Shown piece after piece: positions 1-56,888 of a DNA stretch of 56,888 nucleotides (position 1 is its first letter; each line of letters starts with the position of its first letter). The notes below the pieces were generated by a model. The model was given only the letters and a program-made list of their open reading frames with translations, had not been told where the DNA came from and did not search any database. The DNA is taken from the IMG/VR virus record IMGVR_UViG_3300023292_000011, positions 1 to 56,888 of that record. The stretch is one strand, 5' to 3'. This stretch comes from a virus (lineage: Duplodnaviria > Caudoviricetes). The translations under genes were made by a program, and so were the position numbers.

Positions 1-195
1 GCTTGTAAGTGGGATTCAGTTATTCCTTTTGGTAAGATGTGGCTTATATTGAATAAATTGATTAAGCCGAATGGGGCTATTGTATTGTTCGGTTCAGAGC
101 CGTTTAGTAGTGCTTTAAGAATGAGTAATATTAAGAATTATAAATATGATTGGGTATGGCAAAAAAACAAGCCAACAGGTAATTTTATGGCAAAA
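1..195. repeat. Terminal direct repeat, left copy (circular assembly overlap or terminal redundancy)
   Basis: 1-195 matches 56694-56888 except G69 vs A56762. Confidence 0.95.
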
Positions 196-645
196 AGGCA
201 ACCAATGAGAGCATTAGAGCAAATTAGTGTTTTTTATAAAAAACAACCGACTTATAACCCACAAAAAATAAAAAGAACACCTGAAGAATTTAAGGCTTGT
301 TATAGAAAAAATGATAGTGTTAATAATAATGGTGAGCAATTTGGAAAGGGAACAAAAGGCGTTTTAATAAGGAAAACGGAAGAAGAACAATGGTATAAAC
401 ACCCAATAAATTTAATAAAGTTTGATTTACCAGATGGTAGAAAGGGAAAACAACACCCAACACAAAAACCAGTAGCCCTAATGGAATACCTAATCAAGAC
501 ATACACAAATGAAGGTGAGACAGTTTTAGATTTCACAATGGGTTCTGGTACAACAGGAGTAGCTTGTAAAAATACTAATAGAAACTTCATAGGCATTGAA
601 AAAGATGATAAGTATTTTGAAATAGGAAAAGAGAGATTAAAATAA
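1..645 (+). CDS. DNA amino-methyltransferase (N6A/N4C, beta class), 3' part; gene starts at 56583 across the circular join
   Basis: HPTQKP and VLDFTMGSGTT SAM-binding motifs; frame is continuous with the DPPY-containing 5' part at the window end. Confidence 0.92.
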   Translation, partial: ACKWDSVIPFGKMWLILNKLIKPNGAIVLFGSEPFSSALRMSNIKNYKYDWVWQKNKPTGNFMAKRQPMRALEQISVFYKKQPTYNPQKIKRTPEEFKACYRKNDSVNNNGEQFGKGTKGVLIRKTEEEQWYKHPINLIKFDLPDGRKGKQHPTQKPVALMEYLIKTYTNEGETVLDFTMGSGTTGVACKNTNRNFIGIEKDDKYFEIGKERLK

Positions 646-30349: not shown

Positions 30350-30386
30350 ATTGCCTGGCATATCATGTGTCAGGCAATTCTTTTTT
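30350..30386 (+). terminator. Terminator ending the late operon
   Basis: ATTGCCTGGCA / TGTCAGGCAAT stem then TCTTTTTT. Confidence 0.75.
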
Positions 30387-30406
30387 AAATAAAAAAAAAT
30401 AAAGTG

Positions 30407-30435
30407 TTGACATAGGTTTTAATAGGTGATATAGT
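30407..30435 (+). promoter_or_regulatory. Sigma70 promoter for the middle operon
   Basis: TTGACA-17-TATAGT with extended -10 TG and an A-tract upstream. Confidence 0.8.
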
Positions 30436-30437
30436 TG

Positions 30438-30480
30438 GTGTACTTGAGTGGTACTCAAGTGGTACTCAGGTGGTACTTGA
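30438..30480. repeat. Tandem 11-bp GTGGTACTYRR repeats, putative operator
   Basis: GTGTACTTGA GTGGTACTCAA GTGGTACTCAG GTGGTACTTGA over the predicted transcription start. Confidence 0.7.
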
Positions 30481-34792: not shown

Positions 34793-35926
34793 ATGAATAT
34801 TTTATCACTTTTTGACGGTATGAGTTGCGGACAAATAGCACTTAATGAGCTTGGCATAGATTATGATAATTATTATGCGAGTGAAATAGACAAATATGCT
34901 ATGAAAGTTACTCAAGCTAATTATCCAAATACTATTCAATTAGGTGATGTTGTGAAAGCTTCTAATCATCTCGGGGTATTCCCTGATATGCTCGGTAAGA
35001 TAGATTTGCTTATGGCAGGAAGTCCATGTCAAGGATTCAGTTTCGCAGGTAAACAATTAAACTTTGAGGATGATAGAAGTAAGTTATTTTTTGAATTTAT
35101 TAAAATTAAAAATGCAGTTAAGCCTAAATATTGGTTGCTTGAAAATGTGAAGATGAAAAAAGAATATCAGGATGTGATTTCTAAATTGCTCGGCGTTCAG
35201 CCTATTCAGATTAATTCAGCTTTAGTGTCAGCACAAAACAGAAAAAGATTATACTGGACAAATATCCAAAATATATTACAGCCAGAAGATAAAAGTATTA
35301 TGCTAAAGGATATAGTACATGAATATCTTGATGAAATATTGGATATCAATATTGACACTTTTAATATAAATCCATCTGGAAAAGGAATGAATGGAAATGT
35401 TTATTCTATAAATAAGCCTAAAAGTAATTGTTTAACTACAAATAAAGGAGAAGGTTCAAGAATGTCAGTTGCAATAGCTGAATATATTGTTCCATTTGAT
35501 AAAACTCTTCAAATATTAGATAAAGAAGTTGAAAGAGGTAAAGTAGGTTATTTTAGAAAAGATTCTCAGGCTAATAGAGTTTATTACATACATGATAAGG
35601 CAGTAACATTATGCGGTGATGCAGGTGGTGGTGCAGCAAAGATGGGTCAGTATTTATTTGGTTGCATAACACCCGATAGGATAAACAAAAGACAGAATGG
35701 ACAACGATTTTCAGATGGAAAGAAATTTTATACTCTTACAGCACAAGACAAGCATGGAGTTTTAATTGAAGGATATATAAGGAAACTTACACCGATAGAG
35801 TGCGAGAGACTTCAAACAGTGCCAGATAATTATACTAATCATGTCAGCAACTCTCAGCGTTACAAAATGCTTGGCAACGGTTGGACAATAGCAGTAATAA
35901 AGCACATACTTAAAAATATCATTTGA
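34793..35926 (+). CDS. DNA cytosine-C5 methyltransferase
   Basis: SLFDGMSC, GSPCQGFS, ENV, QNRKRLYW, RKLTPIECERLQ, LGNGW. Confidence 0.95.
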   Translation: MNILSLFDGMSCGQIALNELGIDYDNYYASEIDKYAMKVTQANYPNTIQLGDVVKASNHLGVFPDMLGKIDLLMAGSPCQGFSFAGKQLNFEDDRSKLFFEFIKIKNAVKPKYWLLENVKMKKEYQDVISKLLGVQPIQINSALVSAQNRKRLYWTNIQNILQPEDKSIMLKDIVHEYLDEILDINIDTFNINPSGKGMNGNVYSINKPKSNCLTTNKGEGSRMSVAIAEYIVPFDKTLQILDKEVERGKVGYFRKDSQANRVYYIHDKAVTLCGDAGGGAAKMGQYLFGCITPDRINKRQNGQRFSDGKKFYTLTAQDKHGVLIEGYIRKLTPIECERLQTVPDNYTNHVSNSQRYKMLGNGWTIAVIKHILKNII

Positions 35927-35951
35927 CTGAAAACATTTAAAGCATTATAAT
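35923..35951 (+). promoter_or_regulatory. Sigma70 promoter for replication genes
   Basis: TTGACT-17-TATAAT. Confidence 0.8.
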
Positions 35952-35971: not shown

Positions 35972-36128
35972 AGGTGACGGCAAGCACCTTTTGCAAGGAT
36001 AGGAAACAACGACATGAACAATAAAATTAATAGCCTTTTAGGGTATAAAAATATAGAGAAGACTTACTTGCGACTTGCCAAAATCGTTTCCGAGTCTTTT
36101 CTTTTTTTTATCCCTATTAGGCTTTTTT
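35972..36128 (+). promoter_or_regulatory. Structured leader/attenuator upstream of the initiator gene
   Basis: Hairpin loop ACGGCAAG complementary to CTTGCC inside a long hairpin ending AGGCTTTTTT. Confidence 0.6.
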
Positions 36129-36146
36129 ATTATCAGGAGGTTTGTA

Positions 36147-37286
36147 ATGAATAAACTTACAGGAATTTTTTCAAAAGGATATGGCATTATTCCAAAGGCT
36201 TTTATGAAAGATAAAGAAATATCTAAAAACGCTAAATTGATAATGGCTTATTTCTTGTCTTTTACAGGAGGAGGTAAAATAGAATGTTATCCTAAAGTGG
36301 AAACTATAACAGAAGACTTAGGCATAGCAAGAGCAACTTTCTTCAAATCAATAAAAGAATTAGAGGAGTTAAATTTACTTTCAAAAGTTAAAAAAATACC
36401 AAATAGTCCTATACAATCTAACAAATATATCATCAAAATGATTGATTTTACTCAGAGTTCACCCAGTGAATTGCCAAGGGCAACGAATGTTACCACCCAG
36501 AGTTCAGCCAGTGAACTCTCCATACTTAATAATAACATACTTAATAATAACAAGCTTAATAATAGGAAAGAGTCTAAAGACTCTTATTATGTTGAAACAA
36601 GCTCAACATCTTCTTTTACGGAAAAGAAAGTAGAAGAATCAGAATCCAAAAGTACACCGTACAAGGAAGTCTTTGAGTTCTACCAGACCCTTGGTTTAAT
36701 AAAACATAGAAAATACATTCCTGCTATGAGAAGAGCAATGGAAAAGGCTAAAAGGGATTTAGGTGTAGATGCAGAAGAAATGAAAAGAATGCTTCAAAGA
36801 CATAAAGATAGAGTAGAAACTTCTAAGGGCTTTAAGGTAAAAGGTGAATCAAGATCCGTAAAAGCAAGAACTCTAAGCACCTTCTTCGGTCAAACTAAAT
36901 GTAATAGCATAGAATTAATATGTGCTGAGTATACAGATGATGCATTTAAAACTAAAATATATTCAAATAAAGGAGCTCTCCATGTAAGAGACATCGTAAA
37001 AGAAGAAAAGGAACAGTCCTTCGCATTACACAGAGCAGAGCAAGAGAGAGAGTTCATAAAAGAACGAAACATATATGATAGAGTTGGCAGAAGATTTGAT
37101 GAAAGAGATAAAGCTAAAGAGGATGCTGAATATCAGATAGCAGCAAAAAGAGGAGACACACAGTTTCCTTCTAAGTGGAGACTTCTAATAGCAACATACG
37201 CTAAGTCACCTGAAGATTATAATGCAAAGATAGCGTATTCAGTAAAGAACCAGGGTGTACCAGAAGAGTACATGAGAGAGGGATGA
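36147..37286 (+). CDS. Replication initiator with N-terminal winged HTH (lambda O/DnaD-like role)
   Basis: AGGAGG RBS before ATG 36147; YGIIPK..ISKNAKLI..CYPKVETITEDLGI..IKELEELNLL; internal iterons. Confidence 0.8.
   Translation: MNKLTGIFSKGYGIIPKAFMKDKEISKNAKLIMAYFLSFTGGGKIECYPKVETITEDLGIARATFFKSIKELEELNLLSKVKKIPNSPIQSNKYIIKMIDFTQSSPSELPRATNVTTQSSASELSILNNNILNNNKLNNRKESKDSYYVETSSTSSFTEKKVEESESKSTPYKEVFEFYQTLGLIKHRKYIPAMRRAMEKAKRDLGVDAEEMKRMLQRHKDRVETSKGFKVKGESRSVKARTLSTFFGQTKCNSIELICAEYTDDAFKTKIYSNKGALHVRDIVKEEKEQSFALHRAEQEREFIKERNIYDRVGRRFDERDKAKEDAEYQIAAKRGDTQFPSKWRLLIATYAKSPEDYNAKIAYSVKNQGVPEEYMREG
36450..36565. other. Putative replication origin inside the initiator gene
   Basis: Two ACYCAGAGTTCASCCAGTGAA repeats followed by three AT-rich 15-mers (CATACTTAATAATAA x2, CAAGCTTAATAATAG). 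Confidence 0.65.
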
Positions 37287-39053: not shown

Positions 39054-40862
39054 ATGAAACCTTCTGAACTAAAAGAACAAATAGGATATCAAGCAAAGGA
39101 TATCATTCTACAAGGCTTATCTAAGAAAGAAAAGTCCGGAAAGATACTTTGCCCTTACCATGATGATAAGAATCCCTCTATGTCATGGGATAAAGAACAT
39201 AACTGCTTTAAATGTTTTGCTTGTGATGAAAACATGGATATATACAGATACTACATGGACTTCAAAGGTATGGACTTTGCAGAATCTATGGAAAAGGCAG
39301 CAAAAATAATAAATGTTAAAATTGAAGTTCACAAAAAGAGTATTGAAACAAAGAAAACATTTAAATCAGCAAGAATAGGCTATGATGAACTTACTCCTGA
39401 TGCAATAATCTTTGCAATAAACAGGCACATATCAGAAGATACTTTAAGAGCATGGAATGTTAAGAGTTCTGTTAAGCCTTCAAATGAATGGCTTGTATTT
39501 CATCATTATGATGAAAATAATAAACTTGTATTCAACACTTTTAGAAGTATAAAGTCTAAAGATTTTTTGAGACAGCCTGGTACAAAATCTATTTTATGGG
39601 GTATTAATCATATTGATGTTGAAAAGCCTGTTTTGATTGTAGAAGGTCATTGTGATTGCCTTGCTGTATGGCAGAGTGGCTTTAAGAATGTCGTAAGCAT
39701 ACCGTCAGGAGCAAAAGAACTTTCATGGATAGAGAATTGTCACGATTGGTTAAAAGTGCTTGTAAGGGTGGTTGTGTGGGCTGATAACGATACACCTGGT
39801 TTAAAGTGTGCTGAAACCATAAGATCAAGAATTGGTAGAGAAAAGTGTACAATAGAAGTTAATCCTGATTTTAAGGATGCAAATGAGTTCTTAAAATGTA
39901 GAGGTGAACATGATCTTTATAAATTCATAGAAGAAATAATGAGAGAAAAAGTATCTGGCTTAATAAATATGTCCAGAAGGAAAGATAAGACAAGGGCAAG
40001 TACATCATTCTATTCTGGCTTTTACGAAGTGGATAAACACTTTAGAAAGTTCTCTGGTGGTGATCTTACAATACTCTTTGGTAGAGATAATGAAGGTAAG
40101 TCTACATTCATGTCACAGATGCTTGCTACAGTCTTAAAGACACAAAGAGTATTCTTATATTCAGGTGAGCTTACAGAAAATAGAATAGAAGAATGGCTTA
40201 TGAGACAGCTTGTAGGCAGCGATTCAAGTATGTTCTACACTCTTGCAGATGAATTTCAGAATATAGATTATTTCATTAAACCAGAAGCTAAGAATAAGAT
40301 TAAAAAATGGTATGAAGATAAGTTTTATGTATATGAAACTAAAGTTGAAATGTCAGATACAAATAAATTATTTAATGTAATGACAAGAGGATTTAAAAAG
40401 TTTGGTATAAAGTTTTTTGTAATAGATAACTTAATGACTGCATTAGATGAAAGTTCTTCAGATGAAAATAAAAATCAAACAGCATTTGTAAAACAATGTA
40501 AACAGTTTTGTCTTGCTTTTGACACTCATATAATTGTTGTAGCACATCCAAATAAAACAGGCAGTGCAGAACAAACACCATTGTTTAAGTATCACATATC
40601 AGGAAGTAAGAATATTAGTAACATTGCTGACAATATACTTGCAGTAGAGAGAATCTGGAAACAGGACGAAGAGGCAAATGATTGTTATAAGAAAAAAGAC
40701 CTTAGTGGAATATACTATTCTGCATTGATAAGAAGTTTAAAGGATAGAGTGGGAGCAGGTAGAAAAGAATTTTATTATCACTTTGATCCTGTAAGTAATA
40801 GGTTTTATAATGAACTTACTTTTCAGAATGAAGATTATGGAATATTTAAGGGAGGAAAATGA
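39054..40862 (+). CDS. Bifunctional primase-helicase (zinc finger + TOPRIM + SF4 helicase)
   Basis: CPYHDD..CFAC; VEGHCD, WADND; Walker A GRDNEGKS, FVIDNL, VAHP, ISGS. Confidence 0.92.
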   Translation: MKPSELKEQIGYQAKDIILQGLSKKEKSGKILCPYHDDKNPSMSWDKEHNCFKCFACDENMDIYRYYMDFKGMDFAESMEKAAKIINVKIEVHKKSIETKKTFKSARIGYDELTPDAIIFAINRHISEDTLRAWNVKSSVKPSNEWLVFHHYDENNKLVFNTFRSIKSKDFLRQPGTKSILWGINHIDVEKPVLIVEGHCDCLAVWQSGFKNVVSIPSGAKELSWIENCHDWLKVLVRVVVWADNDTPGLKCAETIRSRIGREKCTIEVNPDFKDANEFLKCRGEHDLYKFIEEIMREKVSGLINMSRRKDKTRASTSFYSGFYEVDKHFRKFSGGDLTILFGRDNEGKSTFMSQMLATVLKTQRVFLYSGELTENRIEEWLMRQLVGSDSSMFYTLADEFQNIDYFIKPEAKNKIKKWYEDKFYVYETKVEMSDTNKLFNVMTRGFKKFGIKFFVIDNLMTALDESSSDENKNQTAFVKQCKQFCLAFDTHIIVVAHPNKTGSAEQTPLFKYHISGSKNISNIADNILAVERIWKQDEEANDCYKKKDLSGIYYSALIRSLKDRVGAGRKEFYYHFDPVSNRFYNELTFQNEDYGIFKGGK

Positions 40863-41026: not shown

Positions 41027-41243
41027 AAGCAAGTGGTGAAATGGTAAACACTATTACTGGTAAGAGAGATTGATTATTGTTGTTGTTCGGTTCTTAGTAA
41101 TAAGAATGAAACTTATACGGAACAACGTGTTAGGCATAAGGGGCCACCTACTAAACACATTTTGCAATATACCAGACTGAAAGAATCCCGGTTACATCTT
41201 TCAGGTGACTAATCTCATGCAGGTTCGAATCCTGCCTTGCTTT
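41027..41243 (+). ncRNA. ~216-nt tRNA-framed structured RNA
   Basis: AAGCAAG/CTTGCTT acceptor-like stem, D-arm GTG-AAATGGTAAA-CAC, T-arm GCAGG-TTCGAAT-CCTGC, ~165-nt multi-hairpin insert. Confidence 0.7.
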
Positions 41244-41252
41244 TAAGATTAT

Positions 41253-41325
41253 GCAGGATTAGCTCAACTGGTAGAGCGTCGCCCTTTGACGGCGAATGTT
41301 AAAGGTTCAAATCCTTTATCCTGTG
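41253..41325 (+). tRNA. trnQ: tRNA-Gln (anticodon TTG), no encoded CCA
   Basis: GCAGGAT/ATCCTGT, GCTC/GAGC, TCGCC-CTTTGAC-GGCGA, AAAGG-TTCAAAT-CCTTT. Confidence 0.9.
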
Positions 41326-41334
41326 AAACAAACA

Positions 41335-41438
41335 AAGCTACGCCAAGAGCTTAACAGTGTACAACGATGGTATATTATAGCAGATCTTTTCGGAGGAGCT
41401 TGGCGGCTTGTACACACTCTGATAAGGTCTGCTTTTTT
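41335..41438 (+). promoter_or_regulatory. Structured leader/attenuator, second copy
   Basis: Loop ACGCCAAG and GTGTACAA are complementary to CTTGGCG and TTGTACAC within the terminator AGCAGATCTT/AAGGTCTGCT-TTTTT. Confidence 0.65.
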
Positions 41439-41453
41439 ATTAAGGGAGGTATA

Positions 41454-41720
41454 ATGTTCACAATATTCATTAACAAGGTAGAGTACAGATGTGAAACTAC
41501 AATTGGTGTAGCTAACATCATTAAAGCAAACTACAAGGACGGTATGGAAGCTGAAGTTATCAATAATGAAGGTATAGTTCTTATGAAGTATGGTAAGCAC
41601 AAAGATGTGTATATCTATGATGATGTTAAGAAGGAACTTGTTGTTGCTAAAAGAATACCAACTGTTAATCCAGATAAGAAGAAACAAAAAGCACAGAAGT
41701 TTAAAAAGAAGATGCTGTAA
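41454..41720 (+). CDS. Hypothetical protein
   Basis: AAGGGAGGT RBS before ATG 41454; an in-frame ATG at 41367 lies within the leader. Confidence 0.65.
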   Translation: MFTIFINKVEYRCETTIGVANIIKANYKDGMEAEVINNEGIVLMKYGKHKDVYIYDDVKKELVVAKRIPTVNPDKKKQKAQKFKKKML

Positions 41721-49453: not shown

Positions 49454-49535
49454 GGTTTGCCTTCTTTCTTTATCCAGGACTTGAGACCTGAACTGTCCTT
49501 TAATATCGGATGTATAGTCCGATACCTCTCAGGGA

Positions 49536-52042: not shown

Positions 52043-52106
52043 GCAGGGCTTGAGACCTGCTAAGCCCTTTAATAAGAGAGCAATTAAACCCTCTTATCTC
52101 TCAGGA
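52043..52106 (-). ncRNA. Twister ribozyme candidate (P5-type permutation)
   Basis: CCU-GAGAG-AUAAGAG..CUCUUAU-UAA-AGG-GC-UUA-GCAGG(UCUCAAGC)CCUGC. Confidence 0.75.
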
Positions 52107-54081: not shown

Positions 54082-54110
54082 TTGTATGAAATTAAAAAAG
54101 TAAGTATAAT
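54082..54110 (+). promoter_or_regulatory. Sigma70 promoter for a candidate sRNA
   Basis: TTGTAT-17-TATAAT. Confidence 0.6.
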
Positions 54111-54116
54111 TAAATA

Positions 54117-54212
54117 GACATTAAAAATCTCCAATCGAATATTGCTAACTCTCTCAGGTTACGGTGTTCTATCTCCCTTAAAGGTATGTGTTTAGCGGCA
54201 CATGCCTTTTTT
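54117..54212 (+). ncRNA. Candidate ~95-nt small RNA with CU-rich anti-SD segments
   Basis: Bounded by promoter and terminator; no credible ORF. Confidence 0.45.
54180..54212 (+). terminator. Intrinsic terminator
   Basis: AAAGGTATGTG / CACATGCCTTT then T-tract. Confidence 0.8.
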
Positions 54213-56582: not shown

Positions 56583-56888
56583 ATGAACAATATACGATTG
56601 ATTAATGGAGAATGTTTAGAGGAGATGGATAAACTGATAGCAGAAGGTGTTGTTGTAGACGCTATAATTACAGACCCTCCTTATGGCACAACTGCTTGTA
56701 AGTGGGATTCAGTTATTCCTTTTGGTAAGATGTGGCTTATATTGAATAAATTGATTAAGCCAAATGGGGCTATTGTATTGTTCGGTTCAGAGCCGTTTAG
56801 TAGTGCTTTAAGAATGAGTAATATTAAGAATTATAAATATGATTGGGTATGGCAAAAAAACAAGCCAACAGGTAATTTTATGGCAAAA
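56583..56888 (+). CDS. DNA amino-methyltransferase, 5' part (continues through the join to 645)
   Basis: GGAG RBS; MNNIRLINGECLEEM..VDAIITDPPYG. Confidence 0.9.
   Translation, partial: MNNIRLINGECLEEMDKLIAEGVVVDAIITDPPYGTTACKWDSVIPFGKMWLILNKLIKPNGAIVLFGSEPFSSALRMSNIKNYKYDWVWQKNKPTGNFMAK
56694..56888. repeat. Terminal direct repeat, right copy
   Basis: Matches 1-195 with one mismatch. Confidence 0.95.

What the first reader, a model, noticed from the sequence alone, without database searches (positions are those of the whole stretch)
41335..41454. Second copy of the loop-pairing leader with compensatory changes
Seen: same architecture as 35972-36128 with different sequence. AAGCT-ACGCCAAG-AGCTT (loop differs from ACGGCAAG at one base) is followed by GTGTACAACGA and ATG; both copies share ACAACGA just before an ATG. 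Targets CTTGGCG and TTGTACAC sit inside a terminator hairpin. Both pairings change in step between the copies, which is within-genome covariation. Inference: a family of orthogonal RNA switches gating read-through into the accessory operon.
Basis: partly seen in the sequence, partly recalled or inferred. Interest (0 to 1): 0.7.

Follow-up and report, generated by a model that had tools for sequence, protein, structure and literature searches.

The report
Phage leader RNA docking its terminator
Two leader RNAs in this uncultured phage, and a third in an unrelated phage, share a small 5' hairpin whose loop, together with a nearby stretch, is complementary to the tip of the transcription terminator that follows, which points to a small undescribed RNA fold whose job is still unproven.

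Summary
At 41335-41454 a 5-bp hairpin with loop ACGCCAAG is followed by GTGTACAA. After these comes a long intrinsic terminator whose tip carries CTTGGCG and TTGTACAC, then a ribosome-binding site and an ATG. A paralogue lies at 35972-36128, ahead of the replication-initiator gene.

The two hairpin loops are 7/8 identical, and the stems differ by compensated changes. Each loop is complementary to its own terminator tip: 6 nt in copy 1 (p=0.012) and 7 nt in copy 2 (p=0.0025).

A pattern scan of IMG/VR found a third, independent member (L244) in an otherwise unrelated phage. It has the same loop, a new 6-bp stem, the same CTTGGCG target, and a different second pairing of 10/10 bp.

This makes the architecture a real, recurrent RNA fold. 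It is a double pseudoknot between the 5' region and the terminator tip, and it has no Rfam match.

Constrained folding keeps the terminator stem intact when the tip is docked, so this is not a classical antiterminator.

My best guess is a cis-acting conditional terminator, or leader lock, at the head of early operons (about 0.4). No RNA data exist, and only three independent members are known.

The parts
41252..41326 (+). tRNA-Gln(UUG), 9 nt upstream of the copy-2 hairpin. tRNA 3' processing would set the 5' end of the copy-2 RNA (inference).
   Evidence: ARAGORN. Rfam tRNA hit at 70.4 bits. In run X2 this tRNA is replaced by other sequence, and identity resumes at 41326.
41335..41352 (+). Copy 2 hairpin P1: stem AAGCU/AGCUU, loop ACGCCAAG. 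Site A is CGCCAAG at 41341-41347.
   Evidence: Stem covariation.
41357..41364 (+). Copy 2 site B, GUGUACAA, in the single-stranded linker.
   Evidence: It is 8/8 complementary to 41408-41415. 83 of 20,000 random segments do as well.
41379..41438 (+). Copy 2 intrinsic terminator. Basal stem is AGCAGAUCUU/AAGGUCUGCU, inner stem UCGGAG/CUCUGA, with a 21-nt tip and a U6 run at 41433-41438.
   Evidence: Folding gives -24.8 kcal/mol on the + strand against -14.1 on the - strand.
41399..41415 (+). Copy 2 receptor in the terminator tip: A' CUUGGCG (41399-41405), a GC spacer, then B' UUGUACAC (41408-41415).
41442..41720 (+). Ribosome-binding site AAGGGAGG (41442-41449) and an 88-aa ORF from ATG 41454. 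This is the first gene of a run of small genes of unknown function.
   Evidence: No PHROG or Pfam match.
35923..35951 (+). Promoter-like site TTGACT-17-TATAAT (11 of 12) that would start the copy-1 RNA about 13-15 nt before P1.
   Evidence: Homology with the mosaic relative L084 begins at 35913, just upstream of it.
35972..35989 (+). Copy 1 hairpin P1: stem AGGUG/CACCU, loop ACGGCAAG. Site A is GGCAAG at 35979-35984.
   Evidence: The variant loop AUGGCAAG occurs in L084, X2 and X4.
36002..36012 (+). Copy 1 candidate site B, GGAAAC(AA)CGA. This pairing is weak.
   Evidence: It gives a 6-nt match to 36086-36091, which is not significant. Net energy is about 0.
36056..36109 (+). Copy 1 inner terminator. 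Stem is GAGAAGACUU/GAGUCUUUUC with a 26-nt loop and a U8 run. The loop holds CUUGCG (36067-36072), A' CUUGCC (36074-36079) and B' UCGUUUCC (36084-36091).
36032..36128 (+). Copy 1 outer hairpin AGCCUUUUAGGG...CCCUAUUAGGC with a U6 run at 36123-36128. It is a second, nested terminator.
36135..37286 (+). Ribosome-binding site AGGAGG (36135-36140) and the DnaD-like replication-initiator gene, which starts at ATG 36147.
   Evidence: PHROG 270/7882. Pfam PF13730 is recorded for the 99%-identical P0001.

Best explanation
**What it is.** These are cis-acting structured leader RNAs at the heads of early phage operons.

**The fold.** Each RNA begins, about 10-35 nt from its 5' end, with a short hairpin (P1). 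Its 8-nt loop, AYGSCAAG, carries site A. A single-stranded site B follows. The RNA ends in a long intrinsic terminator whose tip is a receptor that carries A' and then B'.

A pairs with A' as a kissing-loop helix, and B pairs with B'. Both helices cross the terminator stem, so the folded leader is a double pseudoknot that ties the 5' region to the terminator tip.
- A/A' is conserved in sequence across members.
- B/B' is a private address that differs in every element.

**What is shown.** The sequence elements, their complementarity, covariation in P1, A:A' and B:B', and recurrence in an unrelated phage are all shown.

**What is inferred.** I infer that the fold sets how much transcription stops at the terminator and how much reads into the operon (replication genes for copy 1, small unknown genes for copy 2, a methyltransferase operon in L244).

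Docking replaces the small apical hairpin of the terminator (5 bp in copy 2 and in L244) but leaves the lower stems free. I therefore take it to act kinetically or through a bound factor, not as a classical antiterminator. The conserved P1 loop is the likely handle for such a factor, or for the accumulated short leader RNA acting in trans.

The direction of the effect is not known.
For: **Same plan in all three elements.**
- All three share the order P1(A) - B - [T5 - A' - spacer of 2-4 nt - B' - T3] - U-run, with the next ORF starting 0-19 nt later.
- The three elements are copy 1, copy 2 and L244.

**P1.**
- 20 of 20 cells pair.
- 5 of 5 pairs change on both sides.
- 0 of 500 shuffles reach the covariation score, and slid controls drop to 25-56% paired.

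**A:A'.**
- The match is 6, 7 and 7 nt. It is 7 nt in the natural C35978T variant of copy 1.
- p=0.012 for copy 1 and p=0.0025 for copy 2, against all phage 8-mers.

**B:B'.**
- 10/10 bp in L244 (9 of 20,000 random segments do as well).
- 8/8 bp in copy 2 (83 of 20,000).
- The sequences are unrelated between elements.

**Accessibility.**
- Opening costs are low: 0.4-0.7 kcal/mol for A in the P1 loop and 1.5-6.5 kcal/mol for the targets.
- Net energies are favourable: -5.5, -6.4 and -3.0 for A:A', and -2.1 and -5.5 for B:B' in copy 2 and L244.

**Strand.**
- The + strand folds much better than its complement: -48.1 against -37.0 for copy 1, and -33.0 against -20.9 for copy 2.
- U-runs follow the hairpins on this strand only.

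**Leaders travel with the downstream genes.**
- In the mosaic relative, homology starts at 35913, just before the promoter. It starts again at 41326, just after the tRNA. The upstream DNA is different in both places.

**Position.**
- No promoter-like site was listed between the copy-1 terminators and the rep start. Rep expression therefore needs read-through (inference).

**Specificity of the architecture.**
- A descriptor scan of 2.41 Mb of fetched DNA, both strands, gave 8 hits. Three were these elements.
Against: - There are no RNA data. No RNA run holds this phage, so transcription, 3' ends and read-through are all unverified.
- Only three independent members exist, plus near-identical variants. 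The family-level statistics rest on that.
- With A' and B' forced unpaired, the terminator stems still fold. Docking therefore need not affect termination at all. In L244 the terminator is a 26-bp hairpin of -42.5 kcal/mol that should terminate regardless.
- B:B' in copy 1 is not significant.
- Overall duplex energy against shuffles is unremarkable.
- The A/A' covariation between the copies is a single position.
- No antiterminator-like protein was recognised among 26 neighbouring gene products scanned: 10 against PHROGs and 20 against Pfam, with four in both.
Confidence: 0.4

Rival explanations
1. The element is a structured small RNA, or a 5' stability knot, and not a termination switch. The terminator is simply the 3' hairpin of a compact RNA of about 110-170 nt. 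Docking the 5' hairpin and linker onto its tip makes a knotted fold. That fold could protect the RNA, or the 5' end of the read-through mRNA, from 5' exonuclease. Alternatively it could present or hide sequences for action in trans.
For: - Docking is compatible with the complete terminator stem.
- Local tip hairpins would form faster than long-range kissing during transcription. Docking is therefore more likely a feature of the finished RNA (inference).
- Copy 1 and L244 have their own TATAAT boxes, and copy 2 follows a tRNA. Small RNAs are often arranged this way.
- The private B/B' addresses fit a need to avoid cross-pairing between abundant RNAs.
Against: - In all 3 of 3 elements the next ORF starts 0-19 nt after the U-run, with no promoter-like site in between. 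This is the position of a leader.
- No trans target was identified.
- A test of whether the 5' part masks the downstream ribosome-binding site gave nothing beyond shuffles: 21 of 60 and 30 of 60.
Confidence: 0.3
2. The element is a nut/put-like processive antitermination site. P1, with its conserved loop and freely varying stem, would be bound by a phage or host protein, or would act on RNA polymerase directly. The polymerase would then read through the terminator(s) that follow. The complementarity to the terminator tip would be secondary, for example an off-state that hides the loop.
For: - There are two copies per genome, each upstream of terminators at the start of an operon.
- The loop sequence is conserved across unrelated phages while the stems covary. 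This is the pattern of a protein-recognised hairpin.
- Copy 1 has two nested terminators. A processive mechanism would bypass them more easily than a structure aimed only at the inner one.
- RNA-only processive antiterminators in mobile elements of Gram-positive bacteria are known, for example canT of Tn916 (abstract of PMC11658703).
Against: - It does not explain why A' and B' sit in the terminator tip in 3 of 3 elements, nor why B/B' covary.
- No recognisable antiterminator protein was found nearby.
- The resemblance to lambda nut and HK022 put is recalled from memory, not tested.
Confidence: 0.15
3. The feature acts at the DNA level, or arises by chance. The short GCAAG/CTTGC-type inverted repeats could be protein-binding sites, for example for the initiator near an origin. 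Alternatively the complementarities are coincidences in AT-rich intergenic DNA.
For: - Copy 1 has several GCAAG-like and CTTGC-like words within 110 bp, next to an AT-rich stretch and the rep gene.
- The overall duplex energy test is not significant.
- If the variable loop position tolerated G or C, matching within each copy would happen by chance about 1 time in 4 (my estimate).
Against: - A DNA site would keep its half-sites and vary its spacer. Here the flanks (stems) vary with full compensation and the centre is conserved.
- G-U pairs favour the + strand as RNA.
- The 10/10 and 8/8 B:B' matches are unrelated sequences. One DNA-binding protein cannot explain them.
- The design recurs in an unrelated phage. 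Only one protein region (the methyltransferase) is shared, hit by 2 of 53 ORF pieces.
Confidence: 0.08

Closest known systems
Zipper-type transcriptional attenuator cATT of pLS20-family conjugative plasmids (PMC13401043; abstract and outline read)
   Same: - It is a leader at the head of a mobile-element operon in Gram-positive bacteria.
- A weak upstream stem-loop has sequence complementary to the downstream intrinsic terminator.
- It is RNA-only and cis-acting.
   Different: - In cATT the complementarity extends a long central stem and takes up the terminator sequence itself, which makes an antiterminator.
- Here the upstream segments pair with the terminator's tip, and the stem arms stay free.
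- Here the pairings are pseudoknots, not a nested alternative.
- There is no central long stem-loop.
Phage immunity antisense RNAs: P4 CI RNA with seqA/seqC, and P1/P7 c4 (Rfam family C4). The P4 description comes from passages of PMC4825925. The P1/P7 details are recalled.
   Same: - It is a phage leader region upstream of replication genes.
- Short complementary sequence pairs lie within one leader transcript.
- The pairing is linked to transcription termination.
- Specificity is set by co-varying sequence pairs.
   Different: - Those RNAs are processed, trans-acting RNAs of phages of Gram-negative bacteria.
- No Rfam family, C4 included, matched at E<=10.
- Here the partner sites sit in a hairpin loop and in the tip of an intrinsic terminator on the same molecule.
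Lambda nut and HK022 put sites (recalled) and canT of Tn916 (abstract of PMC11658703)
   Same: - Phages carry paired copies downstream of early promoters and upstream of terminators.
- The hairpins have conserved loops and covarying stems.
- They act in cis on the nascent RNA.
   Different: - Those elements do not base-pair with the terminator they overcome.
- No binding protein or polymerase contact can be tested here.
IsrK of the Gifsy-1 prophage (PMC4825925; passages read)
   Same: A promoter-proximal RNA ends at its own intrinsic terminator, while a fraction reads through into downstream phage genes. The short and long forms interact.
   Different: - IsrK acts on translation of the long form.
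- Masking of the ribosome-binding site by the 5' part was not supported here.
- There is no sequence or Rfam similarity.
Kissing-loop riboswitch aptamers (purine L2-L3; guanidine-II ACGR loops; recalled)
   Same: Two hairpin loops on one leader pair with each other next to an expression platform. The P1 loop begins with ACG.
   Different: - No Rfam riboswitch family matched.
- The natural variant loop AUGGCAAG breaks ACGR.
- One kissing partner is the terminator itself.

Membership tests
Any Rfam 15 family (4,227 models) | A covariance-model match at the gathering score, or at least a weak match | tested here: not met
   The whole window at gathering score gave only tRNA and two Twister-P5 hits. 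At E<=10, the best hit at copy 1 is the rimP leader at 18.9 bits against 47 needed. Nothing overlaps copy 2 except the tRNA. L244 has only 12-bit hits.
Intrinsic (Rho-independent) terminator | A stable hairpin followed directly by a U-run on the transcribed strand | tested here: met
   Copy 2 folds at -24.8 kcal/mol and is followed by U6. The copy-1 inner hairpin folds at -16.5 and is followed by U8, with an outer hairpin followed by U6. L244 folds at -42.5 and is followed by U7. Whether they function as terminators was not tested.
C4 antisense RNA / P4 CI RNA | A match to the Rfam C4 model. The RNA is processed and trans-acting, and pairs with two target sites. | tested here: not met
   There is no C4 match at E<=10 in either copy or in L244. 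Processing and trans action cannot be tested with these tools.
Zipper-type attenuator (cATT) | The upstream stem-loop pairs with the terminator sequence so that the terminator cannot form | tested here: not met
   The complementary sites lie in the terminator tip. With them held unpaired, the stems still fold at -10.2, -21.7 and -36.3 kcal/mol.
T-box leader | Stem I with a specifier loop, and a conserved T-box antiterminator bulge | tested here: not met
   No Rfam T-box match. I noticed CAA in the P1 loop and UUG in A' beside a tRNA-Gln(UUG), but only 3-4 bp with the anticodon would be possible (my reading).
Guanidine-II (mini-ykkC) riboswitch | Two hairpins, each with an ACGR tetraloop | tested here: not met
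   The loops are 8 nt. Copy 2 and L244 have ACGC, and the L084 variant has AUGG. No Rfam match.
nut/put-type processive antitermination site | A hairpin bound by an antiterminator protein or by RNA polymerase, giving read-through of downstream terminators in general | not testable with these tools
   Only position and conservation pattern can be compared. No candidate protein was recognised.

The most novel reading that the evidence does not exclude
This is a new class of phage RNA element. The tip of an intrinsic terminator acts as a two-site receptor, captured by a conserved 5' hairpin loop and by a private 'address' sequence. That would make an RNA-only, individually addressable terminator switch, or an exonuclease-resistant knot. 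One genome could then run several such elements without cross-talk, and the element would move between unrelated phages as a module together with the operon it heads.
Probability: 0.25. Interest if true: 0.75.

Novelty: new variant of a known kind. Interest (0 to 1): 0.55.

Why it matters
If the fold controls read-through, it would be a compact, protein-free way for phages to time replication and accessory genes. The pairs would be naturally orthogonal, because the conserved A/A' handle is combined with a variable B/B' address. That design is of direct use for synthetic terminator switches.

If instead it is a stability knot, it would be a bacterial-virus counterpart of the exonuclease-resistant RNAs known from eukaryotic viruses.

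Either way, it is an RNA motif that neither Rfam nor the three full-text paper searches run here (two of them aimed at this kind of architecture) turned up. It is shared by two otherwise unrelated uncultured phages. It gives a concrete, small set of mutate-and-rescue experiments.

Tried and rejected
**Searches for relatives.**
- Near and distant DNA searches of cultured phage records found nothing meaningful for copy 1, copy 2, the 7.5-kb region or the L244 element.
- A tblastn search with the rep protein found only distant N-terminal matches.
- The rep protein has 2 homologues in the 5.8-billion-protein set.
- Protein-anchored locus searches:
  - Rep and the 145-aa protein gave none in IMG/VR.
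  - Primase-helicase gave 2 distant loci.
  - The methyltransferase gave 80 loci, with no motif in any of the 80. The downstream flanks of the 17 closest were read and showed no shared gene order.
  - The rep N-terminal alignment gave 4 metagenome loci and 19 genome loci. Only L084 (99% identical) carries the element. Several of the others have unrelated terminator-containing leaders.

**Pattern scans of IMG/VR.**
9 have a stem of 3 bp or more, and none has a target site or T-run.
- A strict copy-2-like pattern: 0 matches.
- Loop ACGCCAAG plus its complement plus a T-run: 32 matches in 30 loci, of which 1 is real (L244).
- The ACGGCAAG version: 64 matches, of which 6 have a stem of 3 bp or more. 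Five are one repeated sequence without a terminator hairpin. L300 looked like coding sequence and was not folded.

**Alignment and modelling.**
- MAFFT alignments of whole elements were too poor to build a covariance model. No model was built.

**Structural tests that gave nothing.**
- Masking of the ribosome-binding site or start codon by the 5' part is no better than shuffles: 21 of 60 and 30 of 60.
- Global duplex energy against shuffles was not significant.

**Other.**
- Leader peptide idea: the two frames opened by the ATGs are unrelated, and copy 2 has no ribosome-binding site there.
- No RNA holder was listed for this phage.
- Reads laid from 4 DNA runs gave variants but no transcript information.
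- Literature: three full-text searches turned up no description of a terminator-tip docking leader. Most listed papers were seen only as search listings.

Full report
**Setting.** The window is a whole IMG/VR virus record of 56,888 nt, classed as linear with 64% estimated completeness. Almost all genes lie on the + strand.
- Around the finding lie an SSB, a C5 DNA methyltransferase (34793-35926), a DnaD-like replication initiator (36147-37286) and a primase-helicase (39054-40862).
- After a tRNA comes a run of small genes without family matches.
- Protein matches point to phages and prophages of Bacillota.
- Near-identical DNA is held only by runs labelled salt lake metagenome.

**The observation.**
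- Copy 2:
  - It starts 9 nt after tRNA-Gln (41252-41326).
  - Hairpin P1 is AAGCU-ACGCCAAG-AGCUU (41335-41352), followed by GUGUACAA (41357-41364).
  - A long hairpin spans 41379-41433 and is followed by U6. The ribosome-binding site AAGGGAGG and the ATG at 41454 come next.
  - The tip of that hairpin carries CUUGGCG (41399-41405) and, 2 nt later, UUGUACAC (41408-41415).
- Copy 1:
  - It starts after the best promoter-like site of the region, TTGACT-17-TATAAT at 35923-35951.
  - P1 is AGGUG-ACGGCAAG-CACCU (35972-35989).
  - The inner terminator (36056-36109) has a 26-nt loop that carries CUUGCC and UCGUUUCC.
  - A second, outer terminator hairpin ends at 36128. AGGAGG and the rep start at 36147 follow.

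**Is it more than chance?**
- The loop word ACGSCAAG occurs 4 times against 0.53 expected, and 0 of 100 shuffles reach 4. The other two hits are in coding sequence without hairpins.
- With every 8-mer of the phage used as a mock loop, 1.2% match the copy-1 terminator loop over 6 nt or more. 0.25% match the copy-2 interior over 7 nt or more. Each loop matches the other copy's terminator over only 4 nt.
- The P1 stems differ at 3 of 5 pairs between the two copies, always on both sides.
- The + strand folds far better than its complement.
- Coverage of the terminator interior by complementary words from the upstream leader is high for copy 2: 15 of 35 nt at k=7, matched by 18 of 20,000 random windows. 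It is moderate for copy 1: 23 of 30 nt at k=5, matched by 254 of 20,000.
- Two measures were not significant. One is the global duplex energy. The other is the second pairing in copy 1, a 6-mer matched by 5,072 of 20,000 random segments.

**Relatives.** The phage is nearly an orphan.
- Cultured-phage records hold nothing similar.
- The rep protein has two homologues in 5.8 billion proteins.
- A metagenome contig (L084) and the contigs of runs X2-X4 are mosaic relatives:
  - Identity begins at 35913, just before the promoter, and again at 41326, just after the tRNA. The DNA upstream of each point is different.
  - The leaders therefore travel with the genes they precede.
  - Copy 2 is identical in X2.
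  - Copy 1 differs at five positions, all between 35952 and 35978. One of them, C35978T in the P1 loop, turns a C-A mismatch into a U-A pair and lengthens the loop-target match from 6 to 7 nt.

**A third, independent member.** I scanned IMG/VR for the loop ACGCCAAG, its complement 45-75 nt later, and a T-run. This gave 32 matches in 30 loci. In 31 of them the loop is not flanked by a stem, and most lie in GC-rich coding DNA. One is different.

That one is L244 (minus strand, 1341-1214), a 17.8-kb viral contig of about 36% GC. Reading downstream from a TATAAT box, it contains:
- P1, AGACCU-ACGCCAAG-AGGUCU. The loop is the same and the 6-bp stem is new.
- A linker ending in UUCGAUAAGC.
- A long terminator, AAAAGUCGUG...CACGACUUUU followed by further U's.
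- In the terminator tip, CUUGGCG, then AAA, then GCUUAUCGAA.

The last word is 10/10 complementary to the linker word, and 9 of 20,000 random segments do as well. The next ORF starts right after the U-run and is followed by an N6/N4 DNA methyltransferase.

The two phages share only one protein region, the methyltransferase, hit by 2 of 53 ORF pieces. With L244 added, all 5 P1 pairs show double changes and 20 of 20 cells pair.

A companion scan for the ACGGCAAG type gave 64 matches and no convincing member.

**Anatomy.** The order is always A (in the P1 loop), B, terminator 5' arm, A', a short spacer, B', terminator 3' arm, U-run. A pairs with A' and B with B'. The two helices cross each other, and both cross the terminator stem, so this is a double pseudoknot that standard folding cannot show.
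- A/A' is conserved: CGCCAAG/CUUGGCG in two unrelated phages and GGCAAG/CUUGCC in copy 1.
- B/B' is a different sequence in each element.
- In copy 2 and L244 the receptor overlaps a 5-bp apical hairpin of the terminator. The tip can therefore either fold on itself or dock.
- Energetically, A sits open in the P1 loop, and the A:A' duplex more than pays for opening the target. B:B' is favourable in copy 2 and L244 and neutral in copy 1.

**What it does.** The position argues for a cis-acting leader.
- In 3 of 3 elements the next ORF starts 0-19 nt after the U-run.
- Copy 1 and L244 follow promoter-like boxes. For rep there is no other promoter-like site after the terminators.

That model meets a difficulty. 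With A' and B' held single-stranded the terminator stems remain, so docking is not an antiterminator in the usual sense.

I therefore rank the explanations as follows:
- A conditional terminator whose tip docking acts kinetically, or through a factor that recognises the conserved loop: about 0.4.
- A structured RNA or 5' stability knot in which the terminator is only a scaffold: about 0.3.
- A nut/put-like site: about 0.15.
- A DNA-level feature or chance: under 0.1.

No RNA data are available, and no antiterminator-like protein was recognised nearby. Masking of the downstream ribosome-binding site by the 5' part was tested and not supported.

**Comparison with known systems.**
- No Rfam family matches any of the three elements.
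- The nearest described mechanism I found is the zipper-type attenuator of pLS20-family plasmids (abstract of PMC13401043). It also uses an upstream weak hairpin complementary to a terminator, but it does so to prevent terminator formation.
- The phage P4 CI RNA system (passages of PMC4825925) shares the theme of paired complementary words in a leader ahead of replication genes, but it acts in trans.
- Resemblances to lambda nut, HK022 put, P1/P7 c4 and kissing-loop riboswitches are recalled, not tested.
- Three full-text searches showed no description of this architecture.

**Verdict.** This is a real, recurrent and undescribed leader RNA fold with three independent members. Its effect on termination is plausible but unproven.

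Noticed in passing
window 49475-49533 (-) and 52044-52105 (-): There are two Twister-P5 self-cleaving ribozyme matches above the Rfam gathering score (45.8 and 42.6 bits against 37.6). They lie inside the minus-strand gene cluster.
   Followed up: no
In run X2, 102 nt of this stretch (41053-41154) are absent. It could be an interrupted or degenerate tRNA. Rfam gave a weak Y-RNA-like (YrlA) hit at 41218-41277, E=0.017, running from this gene's 3' end into tRNA-Gln.
   Followed up: partly
window 56583-56888 (+) and 1-645 (+): The open frame at the right end starts an N6/N4 DNA methyltransferase (DPPY region). The open frame at the left end is the C-terminal part of one (Pfam PF01555). The record's ends may therefore join inside one gene, which would make it a circularly permuted genome. 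That methyltransferase is the only protein shared with L244.
   Followed up: partly
window 41351-41378 (+): A promoter-like site, TTAACA-16-TATTAT (10 of 12), lies between P1 and the copy-2 terminator. A contig of run X3 reads ...GGTATAAT just before 41375, which is a better -10 box. A transcript starting there would lack part of the terminator's 5' arm.
   Followed up: no
window 41340-41347, 41399-41405, 41252-41326: The P1 loops contain CAA and the targets contain UUG. These are the codon and anticodon of the adjacent tRNA-Gln(UUG). Only 3-4 bp with the tRNA anticodon loop would be possible, so this may be coincidence.
   Followed up: no
window 30406-30480 (+): After the strong terminator at 30381 comes TTGACA...TATAGT. 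It is followed by four tandem GTGGTACT-like repeats, which look like operators at the start of the early region.
   Followed up: no
window about 54090-54212 (+): This is another short promoter-to-terminator unit (TATAAT-like box, two hairpins, a T-run at 54207) with no similarity to the finding.
   Followed up: no
L244 about 1370 (-); window 36006-36011 and 41361-41366: ACAACG occurs in all three leaders. In L244 it lies 5' of P1, near the presumed RNA start, and not between P1 and the terminator. Its meaning, if any, is unexplained.
   Followed up: partly
L208-L210, L218/L220, L087 (upstream of rep homologues): Several prophage or metagenome homologues of the rep N-terminal domain are also preceded by leaders that hold one or two terminator-like hairpins right before the ribosome-binding site. 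These leaders lack the loop-tip design.
   Followed up: no
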